Positions 2,421-28,604 of a stretch of 61,958 nucleotides of DNA are shown one piece after another. Origin of the DNA: a virus. The notes beneath the pieces are model-generated. The model was not told the DNA's origin and did no database searches. It saw only the letters and a program-made list of their open reading frames with translations. The translations under genes and the position numbers were made by a program. The DNA is taken from IMG/VR virus record IMGVR_UViG_3300025759_000095. One strand, 5' to 3'. Within the stretch, counting starts at the first letter, position 1, and each line of letters starts with the position of its first letter.

Positions 2421-2427
2421 TAACAAG

Positions 2428-2559
2428 ATGCCAATATATAACGAAATATTCGAGTCATATCGAAGAAAACAAAACGAACTTAACAAAGCTATAGAGATGT
2501 TGGAGAAACATGGGTATATAGTTTACAACAAAGAAAGAATGCATGAAACCAGTAAATAA
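2428..2559 (+). CDS. Possible small ORF (43 aa) between the chaperonin genes
   Basis: My own translation: MPIYNEIFESYRRKQNELNKAIEMLEKHGYIVYNKERMHETSK. It fills the groEL-groES gap and overlaps the groES-like start by 17 nt. It is below the ORF-track length cut-off. Confidence 0.25.
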   Translation: MPIYNEIFESYRRKQNELNKAIEMLEKHGYIVYNKERMHETSK

Positions 2560-2800
2560 ATACATAGTAGTAAGAGAGATAGTAGAGGAATATAAAACAG
2601 ATTCCGGGTTATTACTATCCTCACAAGATGTAGATACCTATAGATACAAAAAAGGATTAGTATTAAAAGTAGGTAACAATGTAGAGGTCATTAATGAAGA
2701 TGACCTGATATACTATGATAAAGCTGCAGGACATAAAATATTACTACAAGACGAACCGCTTACGATTATTCAGGAGCGTGATGTTGTAGTTGTTTTGTAG
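2543..2800 (+). CDS. groES: GroES-like co-chaperonin (Cpn10)
   Basis: 85 aa. MKPVNKYIVVREIVEEYKTDSGLLLSS aligns by eye with GroES (I)RPLxDRVxVKRxExExKTxGGIxL. GLVLKVGNN matches GEVxAVGxG, and the C-terminal DLIYYDK..G..ILLQDEPLTIIQERDVVVVL matches GDxVxF..y.g.ev..dg.eyLix.e.DILAxV. It is shorter than bacterial GroES. Confidence 0.75.
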   Translation: MKPVNKYIVVREIVEEYKTDSGLLLSSQDVDTYRYKKGLVLKVGNNVEVINEDDLIYYDKAAGHKILLQDEPLTIIQERDVVVVL

Positions 2801-3239
2801 ATTCATTTATTTTTTTAATTGCATTACGATATACCTTGTCGGTGTAAGATACATTTTTGTTGAACAGAGGATTTCTTTCTGAAATCTCCTCTCCATTTAA
2901 CTTTTTATAAATAGTATCTATAATTCGTCTTGTCTTATAGGTAAGTTCATAGAGGGTAGCTTGATTGCCTTTTCTTTTTCTCCATACATGAATCCATCCG
3001 TCTCTCAGCATTCTATCAAAACGATTCACGTCCCAAGACATAAGCTCTTCGTATTCCTTAAAGTCTGTTTTATTAAATAGTTGTTCGCTATATAAGAACA
3101 ATAACATTTCAAGATCTGGAGTAGTCAGTCCGTATTTTGCTTTTACCCAATACCTAATTACTCTCCAGTATTTTAAATAATCATTAGTAGGTTCTTTTCT
3201 GTCGTAGTTGTTTCTGATTGTTGATTTAATAGTTGTCAA
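2766..3239 (-). CDS. Hypothetical protein (157 aa)
   Basis: Long ORF with natural composition, on the opposite strand to the surrounding arm. Its 3' end overlaps the groES-like 3' end by 35 nt. It is basic and W/Y/R/K-rich and could bind DNA; I recognised no motif. Confidence 0.6.
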   Translation of the reverse strand: MTTIKSTIRNNYDRKEPTNDYLKYWRVIRYWVKAKYGLTTPDLEMLLFLYSEQLFNKTDFKEYEELMSWDVNRFDRMLRDGWIHVWRKRKGNQATLYELTYKTRRIIDTIYKKLNGEEISERNPLFNKNVSYTDKVYRNAIKKINESTKQLQHHAPE

Positions 3240-3474
3240 GATTTATAGTAGATTTAAAATTTTTTAATACAGCGCACTTTTCAAACTCCTCCTTTTCCTC
3301 AAAATAATTTATCATGTGATTTATATCATCAATATCAATGTACTCATCGGTTGGATCGAAAGGCAAAATAACATTATCTAGGAAAATAGCAACCTCATCA
3401 AAAGAGTGCTTGCCAATTAACAAACTATAACCAACATCCATTCCGATGTCGTAAGTTTCCAAAAAATCATCCAT
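3226..3474 (-). CDS. Hypothetical acidic protein (82 aa)
   Basis: ORF overlapping the downstream 2766..3239 gene by 14 nt, consistent with translational coupling. Acidic composition. Confidence 0.5.
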   Translation of the reverse strand: MDDFLETYDIGMDVGYSLLIGKHSFDEVAIFLDNVILPFDPTDEYIDIDDINHMINYFEEKEEFEKCAVLKNFKSTINLDNY

Positions 3475-3485
3475 AAAATAATTGT

Positions 3486-3493
3486 TATCTTTG
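3486..3493 (+). promoter_or_regulatory. Bacteroidota-type -7 promoter box (TATCTTTG, extended TATCTTTGTAAA)
   Basis: Exact TAnnTTTG in the intergenic gap between divergent genes, 31 nt upstream of the ATG at 3525. The same extended 12-mer occurs at 12026 and 17096. Confidence 0.55.
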
Positions 3494-3524
3494 TAAAGAT
3501 ATTAATAATTTTAAAATCTTAAAA

Positions 3525-3746
3525 ATGAAACAAGGTTACAACGATAGACTTGACGAGTCAATAGGTGGAAGACACAAAGGTGCACATTCTCAATCTATGA
3601 AAGATAGAAGAGACGAAAGCAAAGCGATGTCTAAAAAAATGTATGGACACGCATACGGAGCAGACAAAGGAATGTCTTACAGACATGATCACCCTGCTCA
3701 TGTTCACAACGTAAAAGGACACATATCTTCTTTAATTAAGAAGTAA
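3525..3746 (+). CDS. Small His/Lys/Arg-rich protein (73 aa)
   Basis: ORF directly downstream of the promoter box. Basic and His-rich (HKGAHSQS, YRHDHPAHVHNVKGH). Confidence 0.5.
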   Translation: MKQGYNDRLDESIGGRHKGAHSQSMKDRRDESKAMSKKMYGHAYGADKGMSYRHDHPAHVHNVKGHISSLIKK

Positions 3747-3904
3747 TGGCTGGCGGATTTATACAAAAAGCATTTGCAAGAGCTAAGAAAAAAGGCACAA
3801 TAGGTAAATGCTCAGGTAAAAAACTAGGAAGCAAATCATGCCCTAAAGGATCAAAGGCGTATAATTTTGCTATGACATTAAAAAAACTTAGAAAAAAGAA
3901 ATAA
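3746..3904 (+). CDS. Small very basic protein (52 aa)
   Basis: My own translation: MAGGFIQKAFARAKKKGTIGKCSGKKLGSKSCPKGSKAYNFAMTLKKLRKKK. The start overlaps the previous stop (TAATG). Confidence 0.4.
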   Translation: MAGGFIQKAFARAKKKGTIGKCSGKKLGSKSCPKGSKAYNFAMTLKKLRKKK

Positions 3905-3906
3905 TT

Positions 3907-4044
3907 ATGGGTAAATTATTAGTTAAATTTGGAATATGGATTCAAAACGTTTGGTGCAAGGCACTTTGTTGTTGGAATGCATTACTAGCAAAGTTAACTG
4001 TTCGCGTTGACAATTGCCCAAATAAATTATGTAAGTGTAAATAA
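3907..4044 (+). CDS. Small Cys-rich protein (45 aa)
   Basis: My own translation: MGKLLVKFGIWIQNVWCKALCCWNALLAKLTVRVDNCPNKLCKCK. Tightly packed between neighbouring ORFs. Confidence 0.3.
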   Translation: MGKLLVKFGIWIQNVWCKALCCWNALLAKLTVRVDNCPNKLCKCK

Positions 4045-4046
4045 TA

Positions 4047-4211
4047 ATGAGATCAAGGGGATTAGGAGATACTATTTATAAGACGGCTAAAATGATAGGC
4101 GCAGACAAGGTAGCTAAAGCATACGAAAAGGTTACCGGCAAACCTTGTGGTTGTCAAGAAAGACGAGACACGTTGAATAGACTTCACCCTTATAAAAAAA
4201 TAAATAAATAA
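4047..4211 (+). CDS. Small conserved-looking phage protein (54 aa)
   Basis: My own translation: MRSRGLGDTIYKTAKMIGADKVAKAYEKVTGKPCGCQERRDTLNRLHPYKKINK. The GLGDTI...CGC..R...LN pattern resembles, from memory, small proteins common in marine phages. Confidence 0.4.
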   Translation: MRSRGLGDTIYKTAKMIGADKVAKAYEKVTGKPCGCQERRDTLNRLHPYKKINK

Positions 4212-4215
4212 AAAA

Positions 4216-4479
4216 ATGGCGTATCAAAAATTACAAGCGTATAGAGCAGCACAGGTAACACCAAGTGACACTGCAGATATTCCTGCAGTTTCAACTGCAA
4301 CCGGTAAAAACTTCGGTTGTTTATTGTATGTAGGAACAGCAGGCAATGTTAAAATCGAAACAGTTGGTGGCGATGAAGTTACTTTAGTGGGTATCAATAC
4401 AGGAGCATTCATTCCTGTTCAAGTAAAAAAAGTTTTTGCAACAGGAACTACTGCATCCAACATTTTAGCACTCTGGTAA
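4216..4479 (+). CDS. Hypothetical protein (87 aa), possibly structural
   Basis: ORF with beta-rich G/T/V composition, immediately upstream of the fibre array. The antisense ORF 4224..4412 is judged a shadow. Confidence 0.55.
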   Translation: MAYQKLQAYRAAQVTPSDTADIPAVSTATGKNFGCLLYVGTAGNVKIETVGGDEVTLVGINTGAFIPVQVKKVFATGTTASNILALW

Positions 4480-4480
4480 G

Positions 4481-4624
4481 ATGCCTATATTCATAGACAT
4501 AGGATTAAATATCGGAAGGAACGTGCAACCTGGATTCCCACCTCCAGGAAGTGATGAAATTATTTCACAACAATCCATACAGATGGTTGACGAAACAAGT
4601 AGTGACGATTTAATAACGGAATAA
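4481..4624 (+). CDS. Small acidic ORF (47 aa)
   Basis: My own translation: MPIFIDIGLNIGRNVQPGFPPPGSDEIISQQSIQMVDETSSDDLITE. It exactly fills the gap between 4479 and 4626. Confidence 0.3.
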   Translation: MPIFIDIGLNIGRNVQPGFPPPGSDEIISQQSIQMVDETSSDDLITE

Positions 4625-4625
4625 A

Positions 4626-6803
4626 ATGGCAATAAAGTTCTCTCAATTTGTAGTTCAGACTGATGCTTCTACACTTAGTCATGTTGTGGGCTATAATGGA
4701 GTGGATAATATTCAGATAACCCCAACTAACTTTTTAAATTCCCTTCTAACAGGCACAGCCGGACAAGTATTGTTCTACGATACTACGGGAGTTACTGGTG
4801 ATAGCGGCTTTTACTGGGACAATACTAATAAGCGATTAGGTATTGGAACTTCTTCACCTACAGTTAAATTAGATGTAAATTCAGGTACAACTAACAATGT
4901 AGCTAGATTTCAAAGTACAGACAGCGTGGCCCGCATAATATTAAAAGATAATACTGGTGAAGCACATTTAAGCGCTTCTGGAGACGATATGGTATTTGCC
5001 ACTAGCTCATCTGGGTCTGAACGTATGCGTATAACTGATGCAGGCAACGTAGGTATTGGAACGAGTACCCCTAGTGAAAAATTAGAGGTTGCAGGGGATA
5101 TAAAATTAGGAGACAATAAAATTTTAAGACTTGGTTCAACAAGTGGTGGTGATTTTAATTTAGGCTTTGATGGTAATAATGGATTTGCATCAAATTTAAA
5201 AGGAGATTTATATATACAAAATTTTGCAAATGACAAAGATATTATATTTAGGTCAGATGACGGATCTGGTGGAATAACAAACTATATACAAATTGATGGT
5301 TCTGCAGGTGAAACGATTTTTAGCAGGAACACACAACATTTAGATCAAGTATATGCACAGTTTGGTACAAGTAATGATTTAAAAATATATCACGATGGTA
5401 ATAATAGCAATTATATTACATCTACAACTAGCGACATATATTTAAGAAGCGAGGGTAATAATGACAGAATATATATTCAAGCTACAAATAGTGGTACTAT
5501 AGCAAACTACATAACTATTGATGGTAGTGCGGGACAAACTAAATTTTCTAGAGATACAAAACATATTGATAATGCAAAAGCTAAATTCGGAGATAGTAAT
5601 GATTTAGAAATATATCACGATAGTACAAAATCAATTATTAGAAATAATACAGGTAATTTACTTATTGATAATTTTGCTGATGATGCAGATATAATATTTA
5701 GATCAGATGATGGTTCTGGAGGTGTTGCTGAATATTTTAGATTAGACGGTGGTGCTACTAAAGTTATAGCAAGTAAAAACTTTGCATTTTTAGATAGTGT
5801 ACAAATTGAACTTGGAGATTCAGGAGATTTTAATATGTCCCACAATGGGACTGATGTTACTCTACAAAATTTTACAGGTGATTTTAATATAGTTAACAAA
5901 TCAAATGATGCTGATATTATATTCAAAAGTGATGATGGTTCTGGTGGAACAGCTACATATTTTTATTTAGATGGCGGTGGTGTTTTAACTAGGTTTGATA
6001 AAAGACTTAGAATGTCTGATGCAGTAAGTTTACAGTTAGGTTCAAGCGGTAATTTTGAAATGTATCATTTTAGTGGTGATACTACTATAGACAATTTTAC
6101 AGGAAATTTAACTATTAGAAACAGTGCAGATGATGCTGATATTATTTTTAGTTGTGATGATGGCTCTGGTGGGACAGGCGTATACTTTTTATTAGACGGA
6201 AGTCTTGCTGATGGAAGTAATAAATTTACTCGTTTTTTAGATAGAAGTAGAGTTTGTTTTGGAGACGCTGCTGATTTACAAATCTATCACAATGGTACAA
6301 ATTCACTTATTGAAAACAGTACTGGTGATTTTTACATTAGTAATAAACACGATGATGGTGATATTATATTTTTCTGTGATGATGGTTCTGGTGGTGTTAC
6401 TGAATATTTTAGGTTAGATGGTGGTGACGTAGAAACTGTATTTAGTAAAAGAGCAAAGTTTATAGATAATGTTAAACTAAATATAGGTAGTTCTAGAGAT
6501 TTACAAATATATCACGATGGTAGTAATTCCTTTATTGATGAAGCAGGAACAGGTATTTTGTATGTAAGAGCAGCTGCTAATATGTATTTTCAAACTTATG
6601 GTAGTGGTAAGAGATTTGCTTCTTTTTTTGAAAATGATGCTGTTGTTTTATATAATAATGACGTAGAAAAACTTAGGACAATTGGGTCAGGTATTAGAAT
6701 TTCAGGCGTATCAGAATATGCGGATAACACAGCGGCTTTAGCAGGAGGACTAGTAGTGGGAGATGTTTACAGAACAGGAGACGATTTAAAAATAGTACAT
6801 TAA
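4626..6803 (+). CDS. Tail fibre paralogue A1 (725 aa)
   Basis: The N-terminal ~75 aa (MAIKFSQFVVQT..LSHVVGYNG.DNIQITP.NF...GTAGQV...KRLGIGTSSP) are shared with A2 and A3. It has GNVGIGTSTPSEKLEV motifs, six ~75-aa solenoid repeats, and a C-terminal ADNTAALAGGLVVGDVYRTGDDLKIVH motif shared with A2. Confidence 0.75.
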   Translation: MAIKFSQFVVQTDASTLSHVVGYNGVDNIQITPTNFLNSLLTGTAGQVLFYDTTGVTGDSGFYWDNTNKRLGIGTSSPTVKLDVNSGTTNNVARFQSTDSVARIILKDNTGEAHLSASGDDMVFATSSSGSERMRITDAGNVGIGTSTPSEKLEVAGDIKLGDNKILRLGSTSGGDFNLGFDGNNGFASNLKGDLYIQNFANDKDIIFRSDDGSGGITNYIQIDGSAGETIFSRNTQHLDQVYAQFGTSNDLKIYHDGNNSNYITSTTSDIYLRSEGNNDRIYIQATNSGTIANYITIDGSAGQTKFSRDTKHIDNAKAKFGDSNDLEIYHDSTKSIIRNNTGNLLIDNFADDADIIFRSDDGSGGVAEYFRLDGGATKVIASKNFAFLDSVQIELGDSGDFNMSHNGTDVTLQNFTGDFNIVNKSNDADIIFKSDDGSGGTATYFYLDGGGVLTRFDKRLRMSDAVSLQLGSSGNFEMYHFSGDTTIDNFTGNLTIRNSADDADIIFSCDDGSGGTGVYFLLDGSLADGSNKFTRFLDRSRVCFGDAADLQIYHNGTNSLIENSTGDFYISNKHDDGDIIFFCDDGSGGVTEYFRLDGGDVETVFSKRAKFIDNVKLNIGSSRDLQIYHDGSNSFIDEAGTGILYVRAAANMYFQTYGSGKRFASFFENDAVVLYNNDVEKLRTIGSGIRISGVSEYADNTAALAGGLVVGDVYRTGDDLKIVH
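5211..6575 (+). repeat. Six tandem ~75-aa (~225-nt) coding repeats inside fibre A1
   Basis: The unit (D)ADIIF(R/K/S)(S/C)DDGSGG..(Y)F.LDG......F......D.......G.S.DL.IYH.G.NS.I.N.TG...I.N has its DIIF motif at residues 205, 355, 430, 505 and 579, with a degenerate copy (RIYIQ) near 281. Confidence 0.85.
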
Positions 6804-6806
6804 GAT

Positions 6807-9104
6807 ATGGCAATAAAATTTTCACAATTCGTAGTAGAAACTAGTGCATCAACGATGAGCCATATTGTTGGTTATGATGGGGCGGATAATATACAAATCA
6901 CACCTAATAATTTCTTTACAAGTTTTGTAACGGGTACAGCCGGACAAGTACCCTTTTTTGGTAGCACAACTTCATTACTTGGAGATGATGATTTTTCCTG
7001 GGACAACTCAAATAAAAGATTAGGTATTGGAACTACTAGTCCGCTTGGTAAATTACAAGTTAACAAATACACAGTCGGATCACAAGGAAATCAAACTGTT
7101 CACGGAGAGCTAAGTGTTTTCGCAAACAACGGTGATGAATCTTTGTTTTTAGGAATAAAAGACGCTGCGTACCCAAACAGAGGTTGGGCTTTTAACCCAG
7201 TGATAACTGGTGTAAATTCAGATTTACAAATTAAAGAACATGGTAGTTCAGGTGTAAGAATGACCATACAATCAGGTGGTAACGTTGGAATTGGAACTAG
7301 TAGTCCTGGGACAACTCTTGATGTTGTTGGAACACTAGCATCATCAGGCATCACACAGCTAGGAACAGGGGGGTCTAATGTATTACTTACTTCTGCCGGC
7401 GGGGGCAACGTTGGAATTGGAACTAGTAGTCCTAGCACTAAATTATATGTTGACAATGGACAATCTACTTTTAATAGAGGTAACACATCGGGCACTATTG
7501 CTACATTTAGAGGTTTAAATTCTGCGCAAGCTGTTATTGGAACTGCCACATCATATTTTAACAGCAATGTAGGTATTGGAAATACTAACCCACAAAACAC
7601 ACTTCATTTAGGAAATAATGCAGTAGCAGCGGCAGGTGCTTTAAGAATAGATAGTTTTGTTGCAAATCAATATTGGAAAATTGAGCCAGGAACTAATACT
7701 TTAGGTATAAAAGATTATGATGGAAATTCTTTAATGACTTTAAATGGCTCAGACAATTCAGCAACTTTTGCAGGTAGTATTGTTATGGGAGGAGCAACTC
7801 TTGCTAATGGTTATATGATAGAAATGATACCAACTGGGGGTAATATACTTAGAAGCACAAGAGGAAGCTCTGTATTTGGGTCTTATCAATCTACTGATGG
7901 CCCAGTGTATTTTGGTACTACATCAAGTGATGATTTTGTATTAATTACTAATGATACGGCTAGATTAACTTTAAATGCTGCTGGTAATGCAACTTTTGCA
8001 GGTAGTGCAACTATAAGAAAATCTAGTTTAGGTGGTTCAACACCTATGGCTGATGGAAGTTTAGTTTTGGGTGCAGGGTCAACTGATTATTATAGTTTCA
8101 GATTAGATTCTAATGCTGATTTATATTTAGATAAAACCTTTGGTGGTACTGCTGCTAATGTTTTTAGTATTGATAGAAGCACAACAAATGGAAATATAAC
8201 TTTTGCAGGTAGTACAACTTTTAATGACCACACTAAACACCCTGACCAAGTTAAAGCAAGGTTTGGAACAGATGCAGATGCAACTCTTGAACATAATGGA
8301 AGTCATTTCTTTATGGACAATATAAAAGGAACTACATATTTTAGAAATACAGGTGCAAATTCATCAGGAATTATAATTAGAAATGGAGATGTTGGAGATA
8401 TTGAAATTGATAATGAAGTTGCAGCAAATATAAAGTTCAATACGAGCAATGTAGAAAGAATGCGTATTAATAGTACAGGTGATGTAGGTATTGGGACTAC
8501 TAATCCTCAATCAGGAGGGGGAGCAGCTAGTTGGCTAAGTTTAAACGGAACAGCAGCCTACTCAGGTGGAGTTGTTTATACAATAGGTTCCGTAACAAAA
8601 GCATATTCATATTTTGAAAGTGATTATTTAAAACAGCAAGCTCAAACAGGTTTTGGTCAAAAGTTTATAGTTGATGGAACTAATACAGCTATGACTATTT
8701 TATCAAACGGAGACGTAGGTATTGGAACTAGTAGTCCTGATAGTAAATTACATATAGAAGATACTTTAGGTGCAAATATTATTTTAAATTCAAATACAGG
8801 GGCGGTAAATAACGGTATCTATATGACAGAAGGTACTTCATCGGTACCTATGCAAGTTGGGGCTTATCTGTACTACAATGGTTCAACTAATAAATTTAAT
8901 ATAGCAACAGGTGTTGGTGTTCCAACTGACAAGTTAACAATATTAAGGGATTCAGGCAACGTAGGTATTGGTACTACTAGTCCTACAGCTAAGTTAACAG
9001 TAGTAGGTTTAGCAGAACATGCAGATAACGCTGCGGCAATTAGTGCGGGATTAACGACTGGTGCTTTTTACAGAACCGGTGATTTATTAAAAGTAGTACA
9101 TTAA
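6807..9104 (+). CDS. Tail fibre paralogue A2 (765 aa)
   Basis: Shares the N-terminal module (MAIKFSQFVVETSASTMSHIVGYDGADNIQITPNNF) and the C-terminal ADNAAAISAGLTTGAFYRTGDLLKVVH motif. It has six copies of G(N/D)VGIGT(S/T)(S/N)P..(K/T)L. Confidence 0.75.
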   Translation: MAIKFSQFVVETSASTMSHIVGYDGADNIQITPNNFFTSFVTGTAGQVPFFGSTTSLLGDDDFSWDNSNKRLGIGTTSPLGKLQVNKYTVGSQGNQTVHGELSVFANNGDESLFLGIKDAAYPNRGWAFNPVITGVNSDLQIKEHGSSGVRMTIQSGGNVGIGTSSPGTTLDVVGTLASSGITQLGTGGSNVLLTSAGGGNVGIGTSSPSTKLYVDNGQSTFNRGNTSGTIATFRGLNSAQAVIGTATSYFNSNVGIGNTNPQNTLHLGNNAVAAAGALRIDSFVANQYWKIEPGTNTLGIKDYDGNSLMTLNGSDNSATFAGSIVMGGATLANGYMIEMIPTGGNILRSTRGSSVFGSYQSTDGPVYFGTTSSDDFVLITNDTARLTLNAAGNATFAGSATIRKSSLGGSTPMADGSLVLGAGSTDYYSFRLDSNADLYLDKTFGGTAANVFSIDRSTTNGNITFAGSTTFNDHTKHPDQVKARFGTDADATLEHNGSHFFMDNIKGTTYFRNTGANSSGIIIRNGDVGDIEIDNEVAANIKFNTSNVERMRINSTGDVGIGTTNPQSGGGAASWLSLNGTAAYSGGVVYTIGSVTKAYSYFESDYLKQQAQTGFGQKFIVDGTNTAMTILSNGDVGIGTSSPDSKLHIEDTLGANIILNSNTGAVNNGIYMTEGTSSVPMQVGAYLYYNGSTNKFNIATGVGVPTDKLTILRDSGNVGIGTTSPTAKLTVVGLAEHADNAAAISAGLTTGAFYRTGDLLKVVH

Positions 9105-9107
9105 GAT

Positions 9108-12023
9108 ATGGCAATAAAGTTCTCTCAATTTATAACACAAACCAGCGCTTCTTCCCTTAGCCACATAGTAGGCTACAATGGAGCCGACAATATTCAGATA
9201 ACTCCCGCAAACTTTTTCACAAGCTTTGCTGTGGGAAACACAGGTCAGGTTTCATATTTTGACTCAGCCTCTTCTTTGGAAGGAAGCAATGAATTTTTCT
9301 GGGATAGTAGTAATAATAGATTAGGTATAGGAACTAATACTCCTACAGCAAAGTTGCAAATTGCTACTGATTATTCTAGCTCACCTCAACCATTTATATT
9401 TTTATCTAATAATGGATCAAATAACCCTGGTGGAGGTAGTGAAATTATTTTTGCTTCATCTATCTCTGCAACTACATCACTTTATAATGCAAAAATACAA
9501 GGTATTAGAAGTGCTTTAGATAATGGATCATCGGATTTGTTTTTTCAAACAACTCACGTATCAACATCTACTGCGCCTAGTACAAAAATGACAATTAAAT
9601 CTGATGGTAACGTGGGTATTGGAACTACTAGTCCATCTTCTAAACTACAAGTATCAGGAACTTTAGACGCAACAGGTATATCACAACTTGGATCTAGTGG
9701 TTCTAATGTATATTTAACATCTTCTAGTGCGGGTAGCGTTGGAATAGGAACTTCATCGCCTGTTTATAAATTAGATGTGACTGGAGACAGTAGTTCCGGA
9801 GTTATTGCTGTAAGAAACTTAGCTAATGGGAGAGATACTTTTAGATCTGAAAATGCAGCTGGAACTAGAACATTTAATATTGGTAATGACGCTAATGGTC
9901 ACGGTTTAGTATTAGTAAGAGGATCAGGTGGAACAGTTACTAATTATATAACTGGTAATGGCTATTCTTATTTTAATGGTGGTAACGTAGGTATTGGTAT
10001 TAGTAGTCCTGTTGCAAAACTACATGTTTATCAAAATAACTCAGATGATGACACAACAGCTGGGGTTACTATAGAACAAGATGGTACTGGTGATGCTGCT
10101 TTATCTTTCTTACTTTCAACTGTAAGAAGATGGAGATTAGGAATAGATAATAATGATCTTGATAAATTTAAAATTTCATCTTCTACTAATTTATCTACAA
10201 ATAATAAACTGACAATAGACGTAAATGGTAATGTAGGTATTGGAACTAGTAGTCCTGGTCAAAAATTAGCTGTAACAGGAAATATTGGTTTATCGGGGTC
10301 TGTACTTTTTGAAGATAATCAAGGTATCAATTTTGGTAATAGTAATGCAAGAATATATGGTTCAAGTAGCGATGGCATAAAGTTTAACGCAAATGGTTCG
10401 GAAGCAATGCGTTTAAATCAATCAGGCAAAGTAGGTATCGGAACGGCTAATCCTACTACCTGGAAACTAAATGTAGATAGTGGTGATATATATGCAGCGT
10501 CATTTGACACATCAAATAACACAGGTGTAGCTATAAACGGAAACAATACTACAGCTGCTCAGCTTTTAGGTTATTCTAATTCAGCATCAACTTATAATGA
10601 CTTAGACATTAGAGCTAATTCTACTCCTGGTAGTGGTATTTATATTGATGGTAGTGGGTCACACGTAGGTGTTGGAACTACTTCGCCAACTGCAAGATTT
10701 GAAATTCAACACCCACAACAAACTACTCAATTTGATAGAGATTGTTTCTTAAGATTACATCCATCTGCACAGACAGATTCTGGAGGATTTACAAATATGT
10801 TTTTTGGAACTTCTACAACTAATAATTATGGAGTTGCTATTGGTGGTTTAAGAGCAGGTTCAACTGATTCACCATCATTTAGTATTAGAATGCTCGATGA
10901 TGCTATTACAGGAACTGAAGTTTTTAATATTAGTAGTTCTGGTAATGCAACTTTTGCAGGTAATGTAACGTTATCAAGCACTAATCCTTTGTTACTTCTC
11001 GCTAACACAACATCTACAACTGGTAAAACTTGGAGGTTTAGTTCAGCACCAAATGGTAAATTATACATAACTCAAGAGGGTGTTGTAGACGCGGTTACAC
11101 TTGACCACACAACTGGTAACGCAACTTTTGCAGGGAATGTGGGAATTACAAATATACTTCATATAGATGGAGCGGCAACTGGTAGCCCTTATATTGACTG
11201 GAGACAAAATGGAAGTCAAAAAGCTTATATACAATATGCGGATACTGGAGATGATTTCAATATGTCATCTGATGGTAAAATGACATTTAAAACCAGTGGG
11301 GAAAATACAGTTCTTACCCTAGATACTTCACAAAACGCGACTTTTGCAGGAGATGTAACAACAAATGGAGAAATTAAAATAATTGATTCTTCGGCCACGG
11401 GGAATCCTAAATTGTCTTTTTATCAAACAACAAATGAAAGAGCGTATATACAGTATGCAGATACAGGAGAAAAACTAATTATTGATTCTGATTCATCATT
11501 AGTACTTAACACAAATAACACAGCAAGGTTAACAATAGATAGTAATGGTGTAATACAAAATGCAGACATAGATAATACAACAAGTGCAGCATTAAAAATT
11601 TCTAATAACGCAGCTGGTGGTAATTTTACTTATGGAATATCAATAGAAGATGATTCAACAAATACAGGATTAATTCTTTTTTCTAATGCTGCTGGAACTT
11701 CAATTGGTAGCATAACTCGTAGTGGTTCATCTACAGTATATGCCACATCTTCTGATTATAGATTAAAAGAAGATTTACAAGATTTTGCAGGATTAGATAT
11801 GATTTCTAAAATACCTGTGTACGATTTTAAATGGAAAGCAGATAACTCTAGTTCTTATGGAGTTATGGCTCATGAGTTACAAGATGTATTGCCAGATGCA
11901 GTTTCAGGTGAAAAAGACGGAGAAGAAATGCAGGGTGTAGATTACAGTAAAGTAGTACCATTATTAATAAAATCAATACAAGAGCTTAAGGCAGAAGTAG
12001 AAGATTTAAAATCAAAAATATAA
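9108..12023 (+). CDS. Tail fibre paralogue A3 (971 aa) with C-terminal S74-type intramolecular chaperone domain
   Basis: Shares the N-terminal module (MAIKFSQFITQTSASSLSHIVGYNGADNIQITPANF). It has many GNVGIGTSSP..KL motifs and repeated GNATFAGNV motifs. The C-terminal 91 aa (from nt 11748), SSDYRLKEDLQDF.GLD.ISKIPVYDFKWK...YGVMAHELQDVLPDAV....VDYSKVVPLLIKSIQELKAEVEDLK, match the autocleaving chaperone of endosialidase-type fibres. Confidence 0.85.
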   Translation: MAIKFSQFITQTSASSLSHIVGYNGADNIQITPANFFTSFAVGNTGQVSYFDSASSLEGSNEFFWDSSNNRLGIGTNTPTAKLQIATDYSSSPQPFIFLSNNGSNNPGGGSEIIFASSISATTSLYNAKIQGIRSALDNGSSDLFFQTTHVSTSTAPSTKMTIKSDGNVGIGTTSPSSKLQVSGTLDATGISQLGSSGSNVYLTSSSAGSVGIGTSSPVYKLDVTGDSSSGVIAVRNLANGRDTFRSENAAGTRTFNIGNDANGHGLVLVRGSGGTVTNYITGNGYSYFNGGNVGIGISSPVAKLHVYQNNSDDDTTAGVTIEQDGTGDAALSFLLSTVRRWRLGIDNNDLDKFKISSSTNLSTNNKLTIDVNGNVGIGTSSPGQKLAVTGNIGLSGSVLFEDNQGINFGNSNARIYGSSSDGIKFNANGSEAMRLNQSGKVGIGTANPTTWKLNVDSGDIYAASFDTSNNTGVAINGNNTTAAQLLGYSNSASTYNDLDIRANSTPGSGIYIDGSGSHVGVGTTSPTARFEIQHPQQTTQFDRDCFLRLHPSAQTDSGGFTNMFFGTSTTNNYGVAIGGLRAGSTDSPSFSIRMLDDAITGTEVFNISSSGNATFAGNVTLSSTNPLLLLANTTSTTGKTWRFSSAPNGKLYITQEGVVDAVTLDHTTGNATFAGNVGITNILHIDGAATGSPYIDWRQNGSQKAYIQYADTGDDFNMSSDGKMTFKTSGENTVLTLDTSQNATFAGDVTTNGEIKIIDSSATGNPKLSFYQTTNERAYIQYADTGEKLIIDSDSSLVLNTNNTARLTIDSNGVIQNADIDNTTSAALKISNNAAGGNFTYGISIEDDSTNTGLILFSNAAGTSIGSITRSGSSTVYATSSDYRLKEDLQDFAGLDMISKIPVYDFKWKADNSSSYGVMAHELQDVLPDAVSGEKDGEEMQGVDYSKVVPLLIKSIQELKAEVEDLKSKI

Positions 12024-12025
12024 AT

Positions 12026-12033
12026 TATCTTTG
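12026..12033 (+). promoter_or_regulatory. Bacteroidota-type -7 promoter box (TATCTTTG, extended TATCTTTGTAAA)
   Basis: Exact match 3 nt after the fibre A3 stop. It precedes a 23-aa mini-ORF (12039..12110) and the 12123 gene. Confidence 0.5.
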
Positions 12034-12122
12034 TAAATATGAAATACACAACAACAACTACTTGGATTAATGACTTAGAGGTCGAATACAAATACGTAGA
12101 AAACAATAAATAATAATATCAA

Positions 12123-12536
12123 ATGAAATTCTACACTAAAAAAACAACTGAAGAAATCTTAGCTCAAATAGAAATTGACAAAATCAATGCTAAAAGCACA
12201 GCTAAAGAAATTGCATCGAAACATTTAGGAAAGCATGCAATTAATTATATAACTATACTCGTTGTAATAGGTGTAGTCAGTTCTCAGTTTTTAGAAGGTG
12301 GCGCATTAACAGCAGTTATTGGTTTGGTTTCTACCGCAGCAATGGCTTTGATAGGTATACTCCAACATATTGTTGGCGCTAAAGAAAAAGAGGAGAAGCC
12401 AGAACTAGAAATAATAAAAAGTTTAATTAAAGAACTTTCAGACAAGGAAGACGACCCTATGCAGGTAGATGTGACTGACACAGATGTTACAGTGACTAAA
12501 GGAGAAAGTAAGGTAACAGCAAGTAAAAAGAAATAA
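12123..12536 (+). CDS. Membrane protein (137 aa, two predicted TM segments)
   Basis: Hydrophobic stretches INYITILVVIGVVSSQF and ALTAVIGLVSTAAMALIGILQHIV are followed by an acidic tail. It is the first gene of the envelope/lysis block and could be a holin or antiholin. Confidence 0.55.
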   Translation: MKFYTKKTTEEILAQIEIDKINAKSTAKEIASKHLGKHAINYITILVVIGVVSSQFLEGGALTAVIGLVSTAAMALIGILQHIVGAKEKEEKPELEIIKSLIKELSDKEDDPMQVDVTDTDVTVTKGESKVTASKKK

Positions 12537-12537
12537 A

Positions 12538-12840
12538 ATGGCACAAAAAATAAGCGAGGAAACAGAGGTAAGATTAGATTTAAAAACAATAGGAATTATT
12601 GTTGGCGGCGTAATCTCTCTTACTAGCATGTACTTTGTTTTGAAGTCAGATATAGCATTGGCTATGGAAAGACCAGAGCCTGAAGTTTCTAAAATTGAGT
12701 GGTCTTATAAGGACGAGCTTGTGCGTTCAGAAATATCTAGCACTAATGAAAAGGTGCAAGGTTTAGAAAAATCAGTGGAAGAAATAAAACAACAACTAAA
12801 TAAAATTGACGAAAGACTATATGAAATTAGCAAAAAATGA
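12538..12840 (+). CDS. N-terminally anchored coiled-coil protein (100 aa), i-spanin-like architecture
   Basis: A single TM segment (IGIIVGGVISLTSMYFVL) is followed by a charged helical region (EKVQGLEKSVEEIKQQLNKIDERLYEISKK). The stop overlaps the next start. Confidence 0.5.
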   Translation: MAQKISEETEVRLDLKTIGIIVGGVISLTSMYFVLKSDIALAMERPEPEVSKIEWSYKDELVRSEISSTNEKVQGLEKSVEEIKQQLNKIDERLYEISKK

Positions 12841-13163
12841 TGAGATGTGCAATAATTGCCTTTTTCCTGACATGTGTCACTTTTGCTCAAACTGATATTG
12901 AAATAGTTCAGTTTAGCGCCTCTTTTGTTAAAGATAATGAGATTGAATTAAAAAGTTTTAGATATGACTCTGAAACTATCTATATGTCTGACTCCAAAGA
13001 CAAATTCAATAAATACAATATTAAATACATACCAACCATTATATTATTTTATAATGATGAAGAATATTATAGAGTAGAATCAGGTATAAGTTTAAAATTG
13101 CCTGACAACTCTATTGAATTAATAGAAAACAAAATAGAAGAAATTATAGAAAGTAAATTTTAA
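12837..13163 (+). CDS. Secreted (possibly lipoprotein) thioredoxin-fold-like protein lacking CxxC (108 aa)
   Basis: Signal-like N-terminus MMRCAIIAFFLTCVTFAQ. KYNIKYIPTIILFYNDEEYYRVESG resembles the thioredoxin ..KY.V...PTLxLFKNGE....xG segment, but no CxxC motif is present. Confidence 0.45.
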   Translation: MMRCAIIAFFLTCVTFAQTDIEIVQFSASFVKDNEIELKSFRYDSETIYMSDSKDKFNKYNIKYIPTIILFYNDEEYYRVESGISLKLPDNSIELIENKIEEIIESKF

Positions 13164-13165
13164 AT

Positions 13166-14395
13166 ATGAAACAATTAATAACATTAATAATTATACTATC
13201 TACATTAAATGTATCATCACAGGTTATAGATACAGATAAAAAGCTAGAAGATAAGATTGTAAAAAAATATAAAGCAAAAGATTTTTTTAAAAACATTTAT
13301 AAGGATATTTTTAAATACAGCACTGTTTATGTGGCTGGAAACGTAGATAACCCTAAAGAAAATCCTAAAGATTATTTTGTAAGAACCAACCCCGATGGTA
13401 ACTTATATGCCCCGCCTGTTGTAGTTGACGGTACCGACTATTACGACTTTGATTATCGTTATGGTTTTGGAATCCGTAAGTTAGCACGTTTTGACTACGA
13501 GATCAAAGGGAAACACTACTACGATGGCACAGAAAACAATATCGGACTATCAGCACCTAACTCACCCGTTGATGGCTTAGAGTACACAATACATTATGAA
13601 AAAGAAAGGTCTAGGGACGAAGTCTTTACAAATCATAGGTATTTTGTAAAGCATAGCGGCAAGTATCATGTAGCAAAAATAGAAAGCAGAAAACAAGGAA
13701 AAGTAGATTTTAATTACAAATCAGCAGAGTTAAGAGCAAAACTTCCAATAGGAAAAAAACTATCTATATCTGCCGGCGCAATATACCGCACTCATATTCG
13801 CCCTTATGGATATAATCCGGTAGAAATATGGCTTAACGAAACAGATGAAAATGGTTGGCCAATAAACCCATGGTATACTTTGGGTTTCGAATATGGTTAT
13901 GATGATATATATTACACACAAGAAGATCAGAATGGAAATGAAATATCAGATTGGTATTGGATAAATCCTCAAGGTGAAGTTGTAGCTCATACAGATTTAG
14001 AATTTAGGGATACAGTATTTGCAGATTTAATGAATCGATATAATGAAGAGATTTGGAGTGAGCTAGAGACATTTGGTGTTATCAGTCCAATTGTCGGATT
14101 TGATGTGTACCATTACAAAAGAAATTTTTGGCTACACGCGTATGGATCATATTTACTTCCGTATCACAAGTATGTACAGGGTGATGAATCTTTTAGTTAT
14201 TTAAATCGAAATAATTGGGGGCTCGGAGGATTAAGACAAGATGTAGACTTAGAACAATGGGAGGATTGGCAGGCAGGCATTTCATTTGGATGGAAGCTGT
14301 CAAAAAATATTGGAGTATTTGTTGAGGGTGAATATACAAGGTTTTGGGATTCTGAAATTTATCAATCTTCTGTAGGTATAAACTTTAGATTATGA
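13166..14395 (+). CDS. Secreted beta-rich protein, outer-membrane beta-barrel-like (409 aa)
   Basis: Signal peptide MKQLITLIIILSTLNVSSQ. The protein is Y/W/G/D/N-rich with alternating patterns throughout, and its C-terminus (GEYTRFWDSEIYQSSVGINFRL) resembles a terminal beta-strand. Confidence 0.4.
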   Translation: MKQLITLIIILSTLNVSSQVIDTDKKLEDKIVKKYKAKDFFKNIYKDIFKYSTVYVAGNVDNPKENPKDYFVRTNPDGNLYAPPVVVDGTDYYDFDYRYGFGIRKLARFDYEIKGKHYYDGTENNIGLSAPNSPVDGLEYTIHYEKERSRDEVFTNHRYFVKHSGKYHVAKIESRKQGKVDFNYKSAELRAKLPIGKKLSISAGAIYRTHIRPYGYNPVEIWLNETDENGWPINPWYTLGFEYGYDDIYYTQEDQNGNEISDWYWINPQGEVVAHTDLEFRDTVFADLMNRYNEEIWSELETFGVISPIVGFDVYHYKRNFWLHAYGSYLLPYHKYVQGDESFSYLNRNNWGLGGLRQDVDLEQWEDWQAGISFGWKLSKNIGVFVEGEYTRFWDSEIYQSSVGINFRL

Positions 14396-14625
14396 TGAAT
14401 AAAATACCTAACGATAAACTCCTTCATTTTTTTTGGGGAGGTATATCTGCTTTCCCCTTAATCTATTTATTCTCTATTTACGGATTTATTTTTTCCTTAA
14501 CTTTGTATGCAGCAAAAGAAATCATTTATGATTGGCGAATGGGTAAGGGTAATCCAGAGTTTTTAGATTTTGTTTACTCTAGTGTACCTGCGATATTTTA
14601 TTTAATATTAAAATTAAATTTATGA
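14392..14625 (+). CDS. Small multi-TM membrane protein (77 aa), holin candidate
   Basis: Hydrophobic segments LLHFFWGGISAFPLIYLFSIYGFIFSLTLYAA and VYSSVPAIFYLILKL. Overlapping stop/start junctions on both sides, directly upstream of the endolysin. Confidence 0.5.
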   Translation: MMNKIPNDKLLHFFWGGISAFPLIYLFSIYGFIFSLTLYAAKEIIYDWRMGKGNPEFLDFVYSSVPAIFYLILKLNL

Positions 14626-18544: not shown

Positions 18545-18552
18545 AATTAATC

Positions 18553-20073: not shown

Positions 20074-20079
20074 TATGCT

Positions 20080-28059: not shown

Positions 28060-28604
28060 TGTTTGATAATTTTAATATTGAAAGATACAAGCAAATTAGC
28101 TTCCCTAAAAACAACTCCTTAAGAACATTGGGTGAAATAAAAAAATTAAAACTAATGCCATTAAATAAAGTTTTGCCGCCTAAATATGATGATATAGGTA
28201 ATGTGTTTCAAAATATTTTTTCACACCGAGCAGAATCTTTTCCATACAGGGTAGTACAAAAATTAATAGAAGAATCTGAGCCTGTAATTAAAAAAATAAA
28301 AGACTATCATAATAGACCAAGGCCTAATGTAAATGCAAAAAAATTTAAGATTGATTTAGACTATTTAAAAATGAAAAGCGCACAAACGCCATCATTTCCG
28401 TCAGGTCACTCGGCGCAATCAAAATTAGTAGCATTAGCATTAACAGATATTTACCCTCATTTGAAAAGGGAATTTGATAAAGCGGCTGAAAATATATCTA
28501 ATAGTAGAATAGTTGCAAGAGTGCATTATGAATCGGATAAAACAGTGGGGGAAAAATTAGGAGCAGATCTTTATAACCATATAAAGGATCTTAAATATAT
28601 TTAG
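28059..28604 (+). CDS. PAP2-superfamily (type 2 phosphatidic acid phosphatase / class A acid phosphatase-like) enzyme
   Basis: All three PAP2 signature motifs occur in order: KIKDYHNRP / KDYHNRPRP (Kx6RP, residues 79-89), PSGHS (114-118) and SRIVARVHYESD (SRx5Hx3D, 149-160). The protein is 181 aa with no obvious TM segments. Confidence 0.8.
   Translation: MFDNFNIERYKQISFPKNNSLRTLGEIKKLKLMPLNKVLPPKYDDIGNVFQNIFSHRAESFPYRVVQKLIEESEPVIKKIKDYHNRPRPNVNAKKFKIDLDYLKMKSAQTPSFPSGHSAQSKLVALALTDIYPHLKREFDKAAENISNSRIVARVHYESDKTVGEKLGADLYNHIKDLKYI

What the first reader, a model, noticed from the sequence alone, without database searches (positions are those of the whole stretch)
4626..12023. Fibre array A: three tandem paralogues with a shared N-terminal anchor and swapped distal modules
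Three consecutive genes of 725, 765 and 971 aa begin with the same ~75-aa module (MAIKFSQF....S.LSH(I/V)VGY.G.DNIQITP.NF...GTAGQV....N(K/N)RLGIGT). This module is conserved at protein level but diverged at synonymous sites. After it the three proteins differ completely.

A1 and A2 end in the same 27-aa motif (ADN.AA...GL..G..YRTGD.LK.VH). A3 instead ends in an S74-type autocleaving chaperone. The A1/A2 and A2/A3 junctions share an identical 25-nt string, tagtacattaagatatggcaataaa (6793..6817 and 9094..9118). This looks like a cassette boundary that could drive duplication or exchange. The arrangement implies three alternative or co-mounted receptor-binding proteins docking to the same site on the virion.
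Basis: partly seen in the sequence, partly recalled or inferred. Interest (0 to 1): 0.65.

Follow-up and report, generated by a model that had tools for sequence, protein, structure and literature searches.

The report
Three tandem mosaic phage fibre genes
An uncultured ~60-kb phage, probably of marine Flavobacteria, carries three back-to-back fibre genes that share one attachment peptide and are built from interchangeable shaft pieces; this is a clear but not surprising example of how phages diversify host recognition.

Summary
Three same-frame ORFs (4626-6803, 6807-9104, 9108-12023) share a homologous N-terminus (tblastn E about 1e-36). The module is under purifying selection (dN/dS about 0.11) with saturated synonymous sites. 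A1 and A2 share a C-terminal motif. A3 ends in a Peptidase_S74 chaperone. The 25-nt string occurs exactly twice.

Two claims need correcting. First, the proteins do not "differ completely" after residue 75. A2 and A3 stay 43% identical for about 310 aa, and A1 and A2 44% for about 220 aa. Only residues 1-42 are the lineage-specific anchor. Residues 43-85 are a generic fibre-start unit.

Second, the 25-mer is not a cassette boundary. It lies inside conserved islands of 277-406 nt (C-motif, stop, 3 nt, N-module). Exchange boundaries with relatives fall on a ~30-nt sequence encoding GNVGIGTxSP (13 copies), on the N-module and at the S74 start.

Relatives with 82-95% identical flanks carry one, two or three genes here. 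Shaft pieces recur at other positions, slots and lineages.

I read this as parallel mounting of three trimeric tail fibres on equivalent hub sites. That step is inferred, not shown. It is a new member of a known kind.

The parts
4216..4479 (+). 87-aa conserved small virion-type protein upstream of the array.
   Evidence: It matches phrog_12296 'tail fiber protein' at E 8e-14. It is 58% identical to Elemovirus gp41, which sits at the syntenic position.
4481..4624 (+). 47-aa ORF ending ..DDLITE, one nucleotide before the A1 start codon.
   Evidence: The ORF is listed. Its ..(D/E)(L/I)ITE-coding end is conserved at nucleotide level upstream of most N-module genes, including distant lineages. It has no family match. 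Its role is unknown.
4626..6803 (+). A1, 725 aa. Layout: anchor (aa 1-42), fibre-start unit (43-85), one shaft motif (aa 140), six ~75-aa beta repeats (aa 203-650, nt 5232-6575), C-motif (aa 690-725, nt 6693-6800).
   Evidence: (family D1) define the layout. AF2 gives an all-beta body with pLDDT about 80 for aa 155-690. More than 3200 homologues were found in metagenomes.
6793..6817 (+). First copy of the 25-nt string. It consists of (A)TA GTA CAT TAA (..I/V V H stop), then GAT, then ATG GCA ATA AA.
   Evidence: It lies inside a conserved island. The segment 6688-7055 is 90.6% identical to L001.
6807..9104 (+). A2, 765 aa. Layout: anchor, fibre-start unit, five shaft motifs (aa 158, 200, 558, 635, 717), a unique interior (aa 200-557), C-motif (aa 730-765, nt 8994-9101).
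   Evidence: Relatives keep a near-identical N2-type head and C-motif but have reshuffled interiors.
9094..9118 (+). Second copy of the 25-nt string, at the A2/A3 junction.
   Evidence: It lies inside segments 8931-9335 (91.9% to L003) and 8954-9230 (95.7% to L010).
9108..12023 (+). A3, 971 aa. Layout: anchor, fibre-start unit, five shaft motifs (aa 167, 209, 292, 374, 440), three NATFAG units (aa 613, 671, 743), S74 chaperone from aa 881 (nt 11748-12020).
   Evidence: SSDYRLK (aa 881-887) aligns with SASDERLK and SSDRRIK in solved fibre chains 8jov and 6f45.
4853..11744 (+). Hypervariable interior of the locus, relative to the closest syntenic relative L001.
   Evidence: The flanks are 95.2% (1204-4853) and 93.3% (11744-14493) identical. 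Between them, matches are at most 65-91% identical, partly out of order, and partly absent.
5043..10454 (+). 13 copies of the ~30-nt shaft-motif DNA GGYAAYGTWGGWATTGGAACTAGTAGTCCT, which encodes GNVGIGTxSP. Starts: 5043, 7014, 7278, 7404, 7563, 8478, 8709, 8955, 9315, 9606, 9981, 10227, 10425. One more copy is at 9732.
   Evidence: See (families D2 and D3). Exchange boundaries are enriched on these copies. The L046 breakpoint at 8978 lies inside the copy at 8955-8984.

Best explanation
The locus is a tandem array of three paralogous fibre genes, most likely trimeric tail fibres. It lies in a ~60-kb podophage related to Elemovirus and to Cellulophaga, Tenacibaculum and Maribacter phages, so the host is probably a marine member of the Flavobacteriia.

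Each protein has four parts:
- a ~42-residue N-terminal anchor peptide;
- a generic fibre-start unit;
- a shaft assembled from cassettes separated by the motif GNVGIGTxSP;
- a C-terminal cap. In A1 and A2 the cap is a small uncharacterised 36-aa motif ending ..YRTGDxLKxVH. In A3 it is an S74 self-cleaving chaperone.

How it is expressed (inferred). The genes are packed stop, 3 nt, start. No terminator-like site lies at either gene junction or in the 100 nt after A3, and promoter- and terminator-like sites in the region are not significantly above shuffled sequence. They are therefore probably co-transcribed and translationally coupled.

How it evolves (shown by comparison with relatives). Homologous recombination acts on conserved DNA islands. 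These islands are the N-module, the C-motif plus junction, the ~30-nt shaft-motif DNA and the S74 start. Recombination there changes gene number between one and three, and moves shaft cassettes between positions, paralogue slots and phage lineages.

How it works on the virion (inferred). All three anchors are kept by strong purifying selection. The phage also has a crAss-type muzzle tail. In crAss001, 12 hubs each hold the first 26 residues of a fibre trimer. The most likely arrangement is therefore that A1, A2 and A3 trimers mount in parallel on equivalent hub sites. This would give one virion several binding specificities.
For: Fibre identity:
- PHROG tail-fibre families match all three proteins.
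- A3 matches Peptidase_S74.
- The shaft matches solved Bdellovibrio trimeric fibre proteins, 8ond at E 1.4e-10.

Phage context:
- The large terminase subunit is 45% identical to Elemovirus and also matches Cellulophaga, Tenacibaculum and Maribacter phages.
- Muzzle protein Pfam families match.
- The only genome-collection hits are in Bacteroidetes MAGs.

Anchor:
- dN/dS is about 0.11 with saturated dS.
- The profile finds 428 protein clusters among 1.84 billion representatives. In every one of the 150 best that are listed, the match begins within the first five residues.
- In the loci examined, the module heads proteins of 256-2508 aa with many different ends.

Copy number:
- Relatives carry one gene (L013), two (L002, L004, L037, L131) or three (window, L001), with 82-95% identical flanks.

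Cassette exchange:
- The same cassettes occur at 89-98% aa identity at different positions, in other slots and in the MANIKFS lineage.
- Boundaries are enriched on motif DNA, p 2.7e-5.
- Contig L046 is 99.94% identical for 5.1 kb and then diverges inside a motif copy.

Hub analogy:
- PMC10172136 describes the 12 hubs and the fibre N-terminal residues 1-26.
- AF2 leaves residues 1-35 unstructured in a monomer. That fits a peptide ordered only on binding, but this is weak evidence.
Against: - There are no virion data for this phage or for any phage carrying this N-module. No cultured phage record has the module.
- No hub-protein homologue was recognised in the window.
- Homologue names are annotation guesses.
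- The recombinant contigs L046 and L131 come from metagenome assemblies and could be chimeras. Against that, the shared motif is only about 30 nt.
- Boundaries of BLAST segments tend to end in or next to conserved sequence, which inflates the enrichment test.
- Parallel mounting is not distinguished here from serial or branched assembly.
Confidence: 0.6

Rival explanations
1. Serial or branched assembly. The C-motif cap of A1 would be the socket for the N-module of A2, and the cap of A2 for A3. The three products would then form one long segmented or branched fibre, as in the T4 long tail fibre, whose parts are encoded in order.
For: In the MAIKFSQF and MANIKFS lineages, every gene ending in the C-motif whose downstream sequence is held is followed within 3 nt by another gene with the same N-module. 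The last gene in an array never has the C-motif. In other lineages, small 87-88-aa C-motif proteins sit next to giant fibres with a matching N-terminus. In crAss001 the hub-bound fibre binds further fibre proteins.
Against: The C-motif is nearly invariant (..YRTGDxLKIVH) in phages whose neighbouring fibres have unrelated N-termini. It also ends proteins that have no fibre downstream, as in L038 and L068. A specific socket for this N-module is therefore unlikely. No other window protein carries a C-motif that could receive A1 itself. Common descent of the junction explains the gene order equally well.
Confidence: 0.15
2. Alternative rather than joint use. The three fibres compete for a limited set of identical sites. 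Individual virions would then carry different mixtures, or mostly one type, giving a population-level spread of host range.
For: The anchor is the same in all three, and expression is tightly coupled. Gene number is variable among close relatives, which suggests no single paralogue is indispensable.
Against: Nothing here separates this from joint mounting. Each slot has its own N-variant. N1, N2 and N3 are 62-69% identical to each other, but each is almost invariant among orthologues. That could equally mean three distinct sites.
Confidence: 0.15
3. Head fibres. The N-module would plug into capsid hexon pockets, as the first 38 or 58 residues of crAss001 gp21 and gp29 do, and would not bind the tail.
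For: The phage has crAss-like virion parts. Crassvirus head fibres also anchor by a short N-terminal peptide. A second fibre array (B, 17132-21495) with a different N-module could be the true tail set.
Against: The proteins are 725-971 aa long, against about 100 aa for the crAss001 head fibres. They have long shafts and an S74 chaperone. All family matches are to tail fibres.
Confidence: 0.07
4. The 25-nt string is a dedicated recombination or cassette-boundary site, or the in-frame stops are read through to make fusion proteins.
For: The 25-mer is exact against a background of saturated synonymous change. All three ORFs share one frame and are separated only by TAA plus one codon.
Against: No exchange boundary falls on the string. 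Eleven of its bases, ATGGCAATAAA, are shared by almost every N-module gene, even distant ones, and the rest codes the conserved ..VH stop. Its length differs between relatives: 37 nt in L001, and two changes in L131. The MANIKFS lineage also uses a TAATG overlap, which breaks the common frame. TAA is the main stop codon of this genome. No fused form with an internal N-module or C-motif was found. There are no flanking inverted repeats.
Confidence: 0.03

Closest known systems
Modular receptor-binding proteins with an N-terminal anchor and an exchangeable specificity module, as modelled for Klebsiella phages (PMC6872550, PMC8262889)
   Same: The N-terminus is conserved and the remainder is exchangeable. 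One phage carries several such proteins. Exchange between phages is by recombination.
   Different: Here all paralogues keep the same anchor, rather than a second protein docking on the first. In A1 and A2 the C-terminal cap is conserved as well, so the variable part is the middle. No enzymatic domain was detected. The anchor family itself is absent from cultured phage records.
Bdellovibrio bacteriovorus MAT fibre proteins (PMC10769870; PDB 8ond, 8oml, 8ol4, 8ojn)
   Same: The shaft repeats are similar in sequence, E 1.4e-10 to 5.7e-10. Many paralogues share an invariant N-terminal domain. The tips are either S74-capped or non-S74. The authors also propose tip swapping.
   Different: Those are surface fibres of a bacterial predator, not virion proteins. 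Their genes are dispersed, not in tandem. Homology of their N-terminal domain to this N-module was not shown.
crAss001 tail-fibre docking (PMC10172136)
   Same: The window encodes crAss-type muzzle proteins. In crAss001 a short fibre N-terminus (residues 1-26) inserts into one of 12 hubs, and further fibre proteins attach.
   Different: This genome is about 60 kb and is not a crassvirus. No hub-protein homologue was recognised. Similarity between the anchor peptides was not tested.
Mosaic tail-fibre evolution through conserved linker motifs, for example the glycine-rich motifs of T-even gp38 adhesins and the shared segments of P2, Mu and P1 fibres (from my own knowledge, not checked here)
   Same: Short conserved motifs separate variable segments and serve as recombination joints. 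Segments move between unrelated phages.
   Different: The motif here is GNVGIGTxSP on ~30 nt of DNA. The cassettes are whole shaft units. Exchange also happens between tandem paralogues in one genome.
Invertible or shufflon-type fibre switching (Mu Gin, P1 Cin, p15B Min; from my own knowledge)
   Same: A constant N-terminal part is combined with alternative distal parts.
   Different: There are no inverted repeats beyond chance-level 18-21-nt pairs. All genes are complete and lie on one strand. Diversity is fixed in the genome, not switched.

Membership tests
Peptidase_S74 intramolecular chaperone (A3 C-terminus) | Match to the Pfam model above the curated cut-off. | tested here: met
   PF13884 matches residues 882-932 at E 1.7e-12, 47.8 bits against a cut-off of 22.
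Peptidase_S74 intramolecular chaperone (A3 C-terminus) | Ser and Lys of the S-D-x-R-x-K cleavage motif at the domain start. | tested here: met
   SSDYRLK at aa 881-887 aligns with SASDERLK (8jov) and SSDRRIK (6f45). That these are the catalytic residues is from my own knowledge of endosialidase chaperones.
Peptidase_S74 intramolecular chaperone (A3 C-terminus) | Self-cleavage after trimer folding. | not testable with these tools
   This needs expression and a Ser-to-Ala control.
Phage receptor-binding protein with N-terminal anchor | An N-terminal module conserved among proteins whose remainder differs. | tested here: met
   The profile finds 428 clusters. Matches in the 150 best listed begin within the first five residues. 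In the loci examined the proteins are 256-2508 aa long.
Phage receptor-binding protein with N-terminal anchor | Physical attachment of the module to a tail component. | not testable with these tools
   There are no virion data, and the monomer model of residues 1-35 has low confidence.
Phage receptor-binding protein with N-terminal anchor | Binding to a host receptor. | not testable with these tools
   The host is unknown. No recognisable binding or enzymatic domain was found.
Trimeric beta-helical fibre shaft of the Bdellovibrio MAT type | Sequence similarity of the shaft repeats to solved chains. | tested here: met
   8ond_A matches at E 5.7e-10 (A1), 4.3e-5 (A2) and 1.4e-10 (A3).
Trimeric beta-helical fibre shaft of the Bdellovibrio MAT type | Trimeric assembly. 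| not testable with these tools
   Only monomer prediction was available. The shaft regions of the monomer models have low confidence.
crAss-type hub-docked tail fibre | Tail hub proteins (THA/THB) encoded in the genome. | tested here: inconclusive
   Muzzle families match. None of the other ten ORFs scanned from around the head and muzzle genes matched a hub family.
Invertase- or shufflon-switched fibre genes | Inverted repeats flanking alternative segments. | tested here: not met
   Only four imperfect 18-21-nt pairs were found, none in a flanking arrangement.
Diversity-generating retroelement target | A template/variable repeat pair and a reverse transcriptase. | tested here: inconclusive
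   All direct repeats in 4500-12100 are paralogous coding repeats at 60-90% identity, and no near-identical ~100-nt pair exists. The window was not scanned specifically for a reverse transcriptase.

The most novel reading that the evidence does not exclude
The conserved 36-aa C-motif (..ADNxAAxxxGLxxGxxYRTGDxLKIVH) may be an undescribed, autonomous C-terminal folding or capping element for phage fibres. It would be a chaperone-free counterpart of the S74 domain or of the T4 foldon.

Together with the GNVGIGTxSP joints and a short plug-in anchor peptide, it would form a standardised kit. Marine phages would use that kit to assemble fibres of any length, from 76-aa stubs to proteins of more than 1000 aa. 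The window's array would be one instance.
Probability: 0.25. Interest if true: 0.6.

Novelty: new member of a known kind. Interest (0 to 1): 0.38.

Why it matters
Host recognition by the abundant uncultured phages of marine Flavobacteriia is almost unstudied. This locus shows which parts of their fibres are fixed: the anchor peptide, the fibre-start unit and the two kinds of C-terminal cap. It also shows which part is free to vary, namely the shaft cassettes, and where DNA exchange happens.

That gives a practical rule for reading fibre genes in marine viromes. It also gives a way to spot hypervariable host-range islands. In addition, it flags two widespread modules, the MAIKFSQF anchor and the YRTGDxLKIVH cap, that matched no Pfam or PHROG family when searched here.

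The general principle is already well established in other phages: a conserved anchor, exchangeable specificity parts and several fibres per virion.

Tried and rejected
**Searches that found nothing**
- Megablast of 4000-12500 against cultured phages gave no match.
- tblastn of the N-module against cultured phages gave no match.
- tblastn of the C-motif against cultured phages gave one weak hit, EBPR podovirus 1 gp23.
- Pfam found nothing in A1 or A2.
- PHROGs found nothing for the small C-motif proteins.

**Structure**
- The AF2 monomer of A1 gave a confident all-beta body. Foldseek returned only local beta-propeller-like matches with TM at most 0.10, which I treat as no match.
- The AF2 monomer of the N-module left residues 1-35 unstructured.

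**Signals**
- Promoter-like sites (35 found, 40.5 expected) and terminator-like sites (6 found, 3.9 expected) are not significantly above shuffled sequence.
- There are no meaningful inverted repeats.

**Ideas dropped**
- One split fibre or read-through fusion. No internal N-module or C-motif exists in the long single proteins. TAA is the usual stop. A sister lineage has an out-of-frame TAATG junction.
- A hub protein carrying a C-motif. None is present in the window.
- The upstream 87-aa protein as a partner specific to this N-module. It is also present in Elemovirus, which lacks the module.

**Technical**
- A first BLAST screen for shared cassettes failed because long low-identity alignments swallowed the short identical pieces.
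- One script call returned nothing.
- Cutting the proteins at the motif and comparing pieces worked.

**Literature**
- Searches for Elemovirus fibres and for tandem fibre paralogues gave nothing directly relevant.
Full report
**1. What is in the sequence**

Three ORFs on the + strand occupy 4626-6803 (A1, 725 aa), 6807-9104 (A2, 765 aa) and 9108-12023 (A3, 971 aa). They share one reading frame. Each pair is separated by TAA plus GAT.

The N-termini align with one single-residue gap. There are 32 invariant columns in the first 59 and 45 in the first 100. tblastn of A2 residues 1-85 against the window finds only the three gene starts, at E 2e-55, 5e-37 and 6e-36. The similarity is therefore homology, not composition.

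The codons have drifted apart. Third-position identity is 36-48%. dS is above 2 or not computable, dN is 0.22-0.31 and dN/dS is about 0.11.

A1 and A2 both end in ADN.AA...GL..G..YRTGD.LK.VH. Their last 36 residues are 53% identical, E 2e-8. A3 residues 882-932 match Pfam Peptidase_S74 at E 1.7e-12. Its SSDYRLK at residues 881-887 aligns with the equivalent motif in two solved fibre chains, 8jov and 6f45.

The 25-mer TAGTACATTAAGATATGGCAATAAA occurs at 6793 and 9094 only. No shuffle gave a match.

**2. Where the description needs correcting**

The proteins do not differ completely after the N-module. A2 and A3 are 43% identical over about 310 residues. A1 and A2 are 44% identical over about 220.

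All three reuse a shaft motif, G(N/D/S/K)VGIGTxxP, once in A1 and five times each in A2 and A3. At DNA level this is a ~30-nt near-identical sequence with 13 copies between 5043 and 10454 (family D3). A2 and A3 also share a shorter NATFAG unit (D8 and D10). A1 contains six ~75-aa beta repeats at residues 203-650 (D1).

The "75-aa module" has two parts. Residues 1-42 (MAIKFSQF...VGY.G.DNIQITP.NF) are specific to this lineage. Residues 43-85 (..GQV..F......WDNTNKRLGIGT..P) also occur after quite different N-termini. They amount to the first shaft unit.

**3. What kind of phage this is**

The window encodes:
- a large terminase subunit, portal and capsid-type proteins;
- GroEL and GroES;
- an M15 endolysin and a holin just downstream of the array;
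- a 1652-aa protein and a 248-aa protein matching the Pfam crassvirus muzzle families;
- replication genes on the other strand.

The terminase is 71% identical to an uncultured 60.8-kb record. It is 45% identical to Flavobacterium Elemovirus phages. It also matches Cellulophaga, Tenacibaculum and Maribacter phages. Contigs with the identical A1 reach 65 kb, and relatives are 58-60 kb. The window is therefore close to a whole genome.

Two contigs in Bacteroidetes MAGs are the only hits for the N-module in the genome collection. A marine Flavobacteriia host is likely but not shown.

A second array lies at 17132-21495. It has three S74-ending paralogues of 470, 506 and 471 aa with their own shared ~70-aa N-terminus.

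**4. That these are fibres**

- PHROG tail-fibre families match all three proteins.
- The shaft regions match solved Bdellovibrio MAT fibre proteins by sequence (8ond, E 1.4e-10 for A3). These are trimeric beta-helical fibres with an invariant N-terminal domain and tips that are either S74 or non-S74 (PMC10769870).
- An AF2 monomer model of A1 gives an all-beta body with pLDDT about 80 for residues 155-690. The N-terminal 154 residues and the C-motif have low confidence.
- Foldseek against the PDB gave only local matches with TM at most 0.10. The repeat body therefore has no usable structural relative.

**5. Distribution of the modules**

*N-module.* The profile finds 428 clusters among 1.84 billion representative proteins at E up to 0.001. 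In all 150 best hits listed, the match begins within the first five residues. In 36 IMG/VR loci the module heads ORFs of 256-2508 aa with many different C-termini. No cultured phage record has it. The syntenic gene of Elemovirus has a different N-terminus.

*A1-type body.* It has more than 3200 relatives in metagenomes. These sit behind at least six different N-termini and in front of several different C-termini.

*C-motif.* It occurs in 163 IMG/VR places. In all 59 ORFs I could parse it is at the very C-terminus. Those proteins range from 76 to more than 1000 aa and have unrelated N-termini. They include 87-88-aa proteins that are little more than an N-terminal peptide plus the motif. The motif-bearing proteins searched matched no Pfam or PHROG family at this element.

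**6. How the locus evolves**

*Flanks against interior.* Against its closest syntenic relative (L001), the window is 95.2% identical up to 4853. That position is codon 76 of A1, on the first ..LGIGT.. motif. It is 93.3% identical again from 11744, which is the start of the S74 domain. In between, matches are 65-91%, patchy and partly out of order. For example, window 7986-8209 in A2 is 94% identical to a piece of L001's third gene.

*Gene number.* Relatives with 82-95% identical flanks carry:
- one gene (L013);
- two (L002, L004, L131, and L037 in the MANIKFS sister lineage);
- three (window, L001).

L131 has an A1-type gene followed by a single gene with the A2-type head and an S74 tail. After that come 5.5 kb that are 95% identical to the window. 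The same contig lacks one copy of array B, and the deletion endpoints lie in the B N-module.

*Cassettes.* Proteins with an almost unchanged A2-type or A3-type head have completely reshuffled interiors. When proteins are cut at the shaft motif, individual cassettes of A3 recur elsewhere:
- residues 292-373 recur at 180-261, 346-427 or 195-276 of other proteins, at 89-98% identity;
- residues 374-439 recur at 154-219 or 204-269, at 97%;
- some of these proteins are from the MANIKFS lineage.

*A recent recombinant.* Of 14 contigs with an identical A1, every one long enough to hold the whole array shows the 725/765/971 layout. L046 departs from it. It is 99.94% identical over 5115 nt and then diverges at 8978, inside the motif copy at 8955-8984. 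From there it continues as a longer open frame.

*Boundary test.* Of 21 distinct internal boundaries of segments at least 88% identical, 10 fall on motif DNA against 10.9% expected (p 2.7e-5). None falls on the 25-mer, and three segments run straight through the junctions. This test is biased towards conserved sequence, so it is supportive rather than decisive.

**7. The 25-mer explained**

It consists of the last codons of the C-motif (..V H stop), a 3-nt spacer, and ATGGCAATAAA. Those eleven bases begin 50 of the 52 N-module genes listed, including distant ones. This points to a constraint on the first codons, perhaps for translation start.

The identical stretch is not fixed in length. In L001 the two junctions share 37 nt. 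In L131 the junction differs at two bases.

The first eight codons of the third gene exist in two synonymous versions. One equals the A1 version (window, L010). The other equals the A2 version (L001, L003). That is what short gene-conversion tracts between paralogues would leave.

The string is therefore the core of a conserved island 277-406 nt long, not a boundary.

**8. Expression**

Promoter- and terminator-like sites in 3400-12700 are not significantly above shuffled sequence. None of the terminator-like sites lies at a gene junction or after A3. Bacteroidetes promoters are not covered by that scan.

The stop, 3 nt, start packing suggests translational coupling, as does the TAATG overlap in some MANIKFS arrays. 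Read-through fusion is unlikely for three reasons:
- TAA is the usual stop codon here;
- the overlap variant breaks the frame;
- no fused protein with an internal N-module or C-motif was found.

**9. How it probably works**

*Shown:* three intact, selectively maintained paralogues with one anchor, and recombination-driven diversity.

*Inferred:* all three are made and mounted. In crAss001, 12 tail hubs each hold residues 1-26 of a trimeric fibre, and further fibre proteins attach to it (PMC10172136). With a crAss-type muzzle in this phage, parallel docking of A1, A2 and A3 trimers on equivalent hubs is the simplest model.

*Main rival:* end-to-end or branched assembly through the C-motif. This fits the rule that, in these two lineages, every C-motif gene is followed by another N-module gene. 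It is weakened by three observations:
- the motif is nearly invariant next to fibres with unrelated N-termini;
- there are C-motif genes with no fibre after them, as in L038 and L068;
- no C-motif exists elsewhere in the window to receive A1.

Head-fibre placement cannot be excluded.

*What the C-motif does.* I think the C-motif is most likely an autonomous terminal cap or trimerisation element, standing in for the S74 chaperone. This rests only on its position, its invariance and its presence in minimal proteins.

**10. Novelty**

The principle is well known: a conserved anchor, exchangeable specificity parts, several fibres per virion and mosaic evolution at linker motifs (PMC6872550, PMC8262889, PMC10769870). 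The T-even, P2, Mu and P1 parallels are from my own knowledge.

What is new is the instance:
- an anchor family absent from cultured phages;
- a C-terminal cap that matched no Pfam or PHROG family when searched here;
- a clear map of joints in an uncultured marine phage group.

I rate it a new member of a known kind, with moderate interest.

Noticed in passing
window 17132-21495: There is a second tandem array (B) of three paralogues of 470, 506 and 471 aa. They share their own ~70-aa N-terminus (64-69% identity), and each has a Peptidase_S74 domain. Relative L131 lacks one copy, with the deletion endpoints inside the B N-module.
   Followed up: partly
L073, L074, L078, L098, L101 and L105 (about 5840-6120 in each locus); L076 and L085-L092 (5716-6111): The C-motif ..YRTGDxLKIVH ends very small proteins in other viral contigs. 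One class is 87-88 aa and starts MxKISxYP. Another is 131 aa and starts MRTAAICPTC. Most of those listed here lie next to fibre genes of 758-2000 aa. The 87-88-aa class often shares its N-terminus with that neighbour. No family match was found.
   Followed up: partly
window 4481-4624: A 47-aa ORF ends ..DDLITE one base before A1. The ..ITE-coding end is conserved at nucleotide level upstream of N-module genes in several distant lineages. Its first residues (MPIFIDIGLNIG) loosely resemble the start of Elemovirus gp40 (MFISIANAIGVN), the gene at the syntenic position.
   Followed up: no
window 34041-38999 and 39009-39755: Crassvirus muzzle protein families (crAss_MUZ and crAss_MUZ_C) match in a ~60-kb phage that is not a crassvirus. 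The 2225-aa protein at 42327-49004 carries an LPD38 domain and matches PHROGs of 2800-3900-aa proteins of unknown function.
   Followed up: partly
window 825-2420 and 2543-2800: The phage encodes GroEL and GroES just upstream of the fibre region. The same pair is present in the related lineages L037 and L038 and in Elemovirus.
   Followed up: no
window 28059-28604: A PAP2-superfamily (phosphatase-type) protein is encoded between the portal gene and the capsid-type genes.
   Followed up: no
window 13166-14395: A 409-aa protein has a signal-peptide-like start (MKQLITLIIILSTLNVSSQ) and an aromatic-rich end (..SVGINFRL), reminiscent of an outer-membrane beta-barrel. It sits between the fibre array and the endolysin and holin genes. 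It has no family match.
   Followed up: no
L046 (JGI 3300025810 Ga0208543_1001598), locus 5115 onwards: This contig is 99.94% identical to window 3864-8978. Its second fibre gene loses the C-motif and continues as an open frame of at least 1117 aa made of other shaft cassettes. It is either a very recent recombinant or an assembly chimera.
   Followed up: partly
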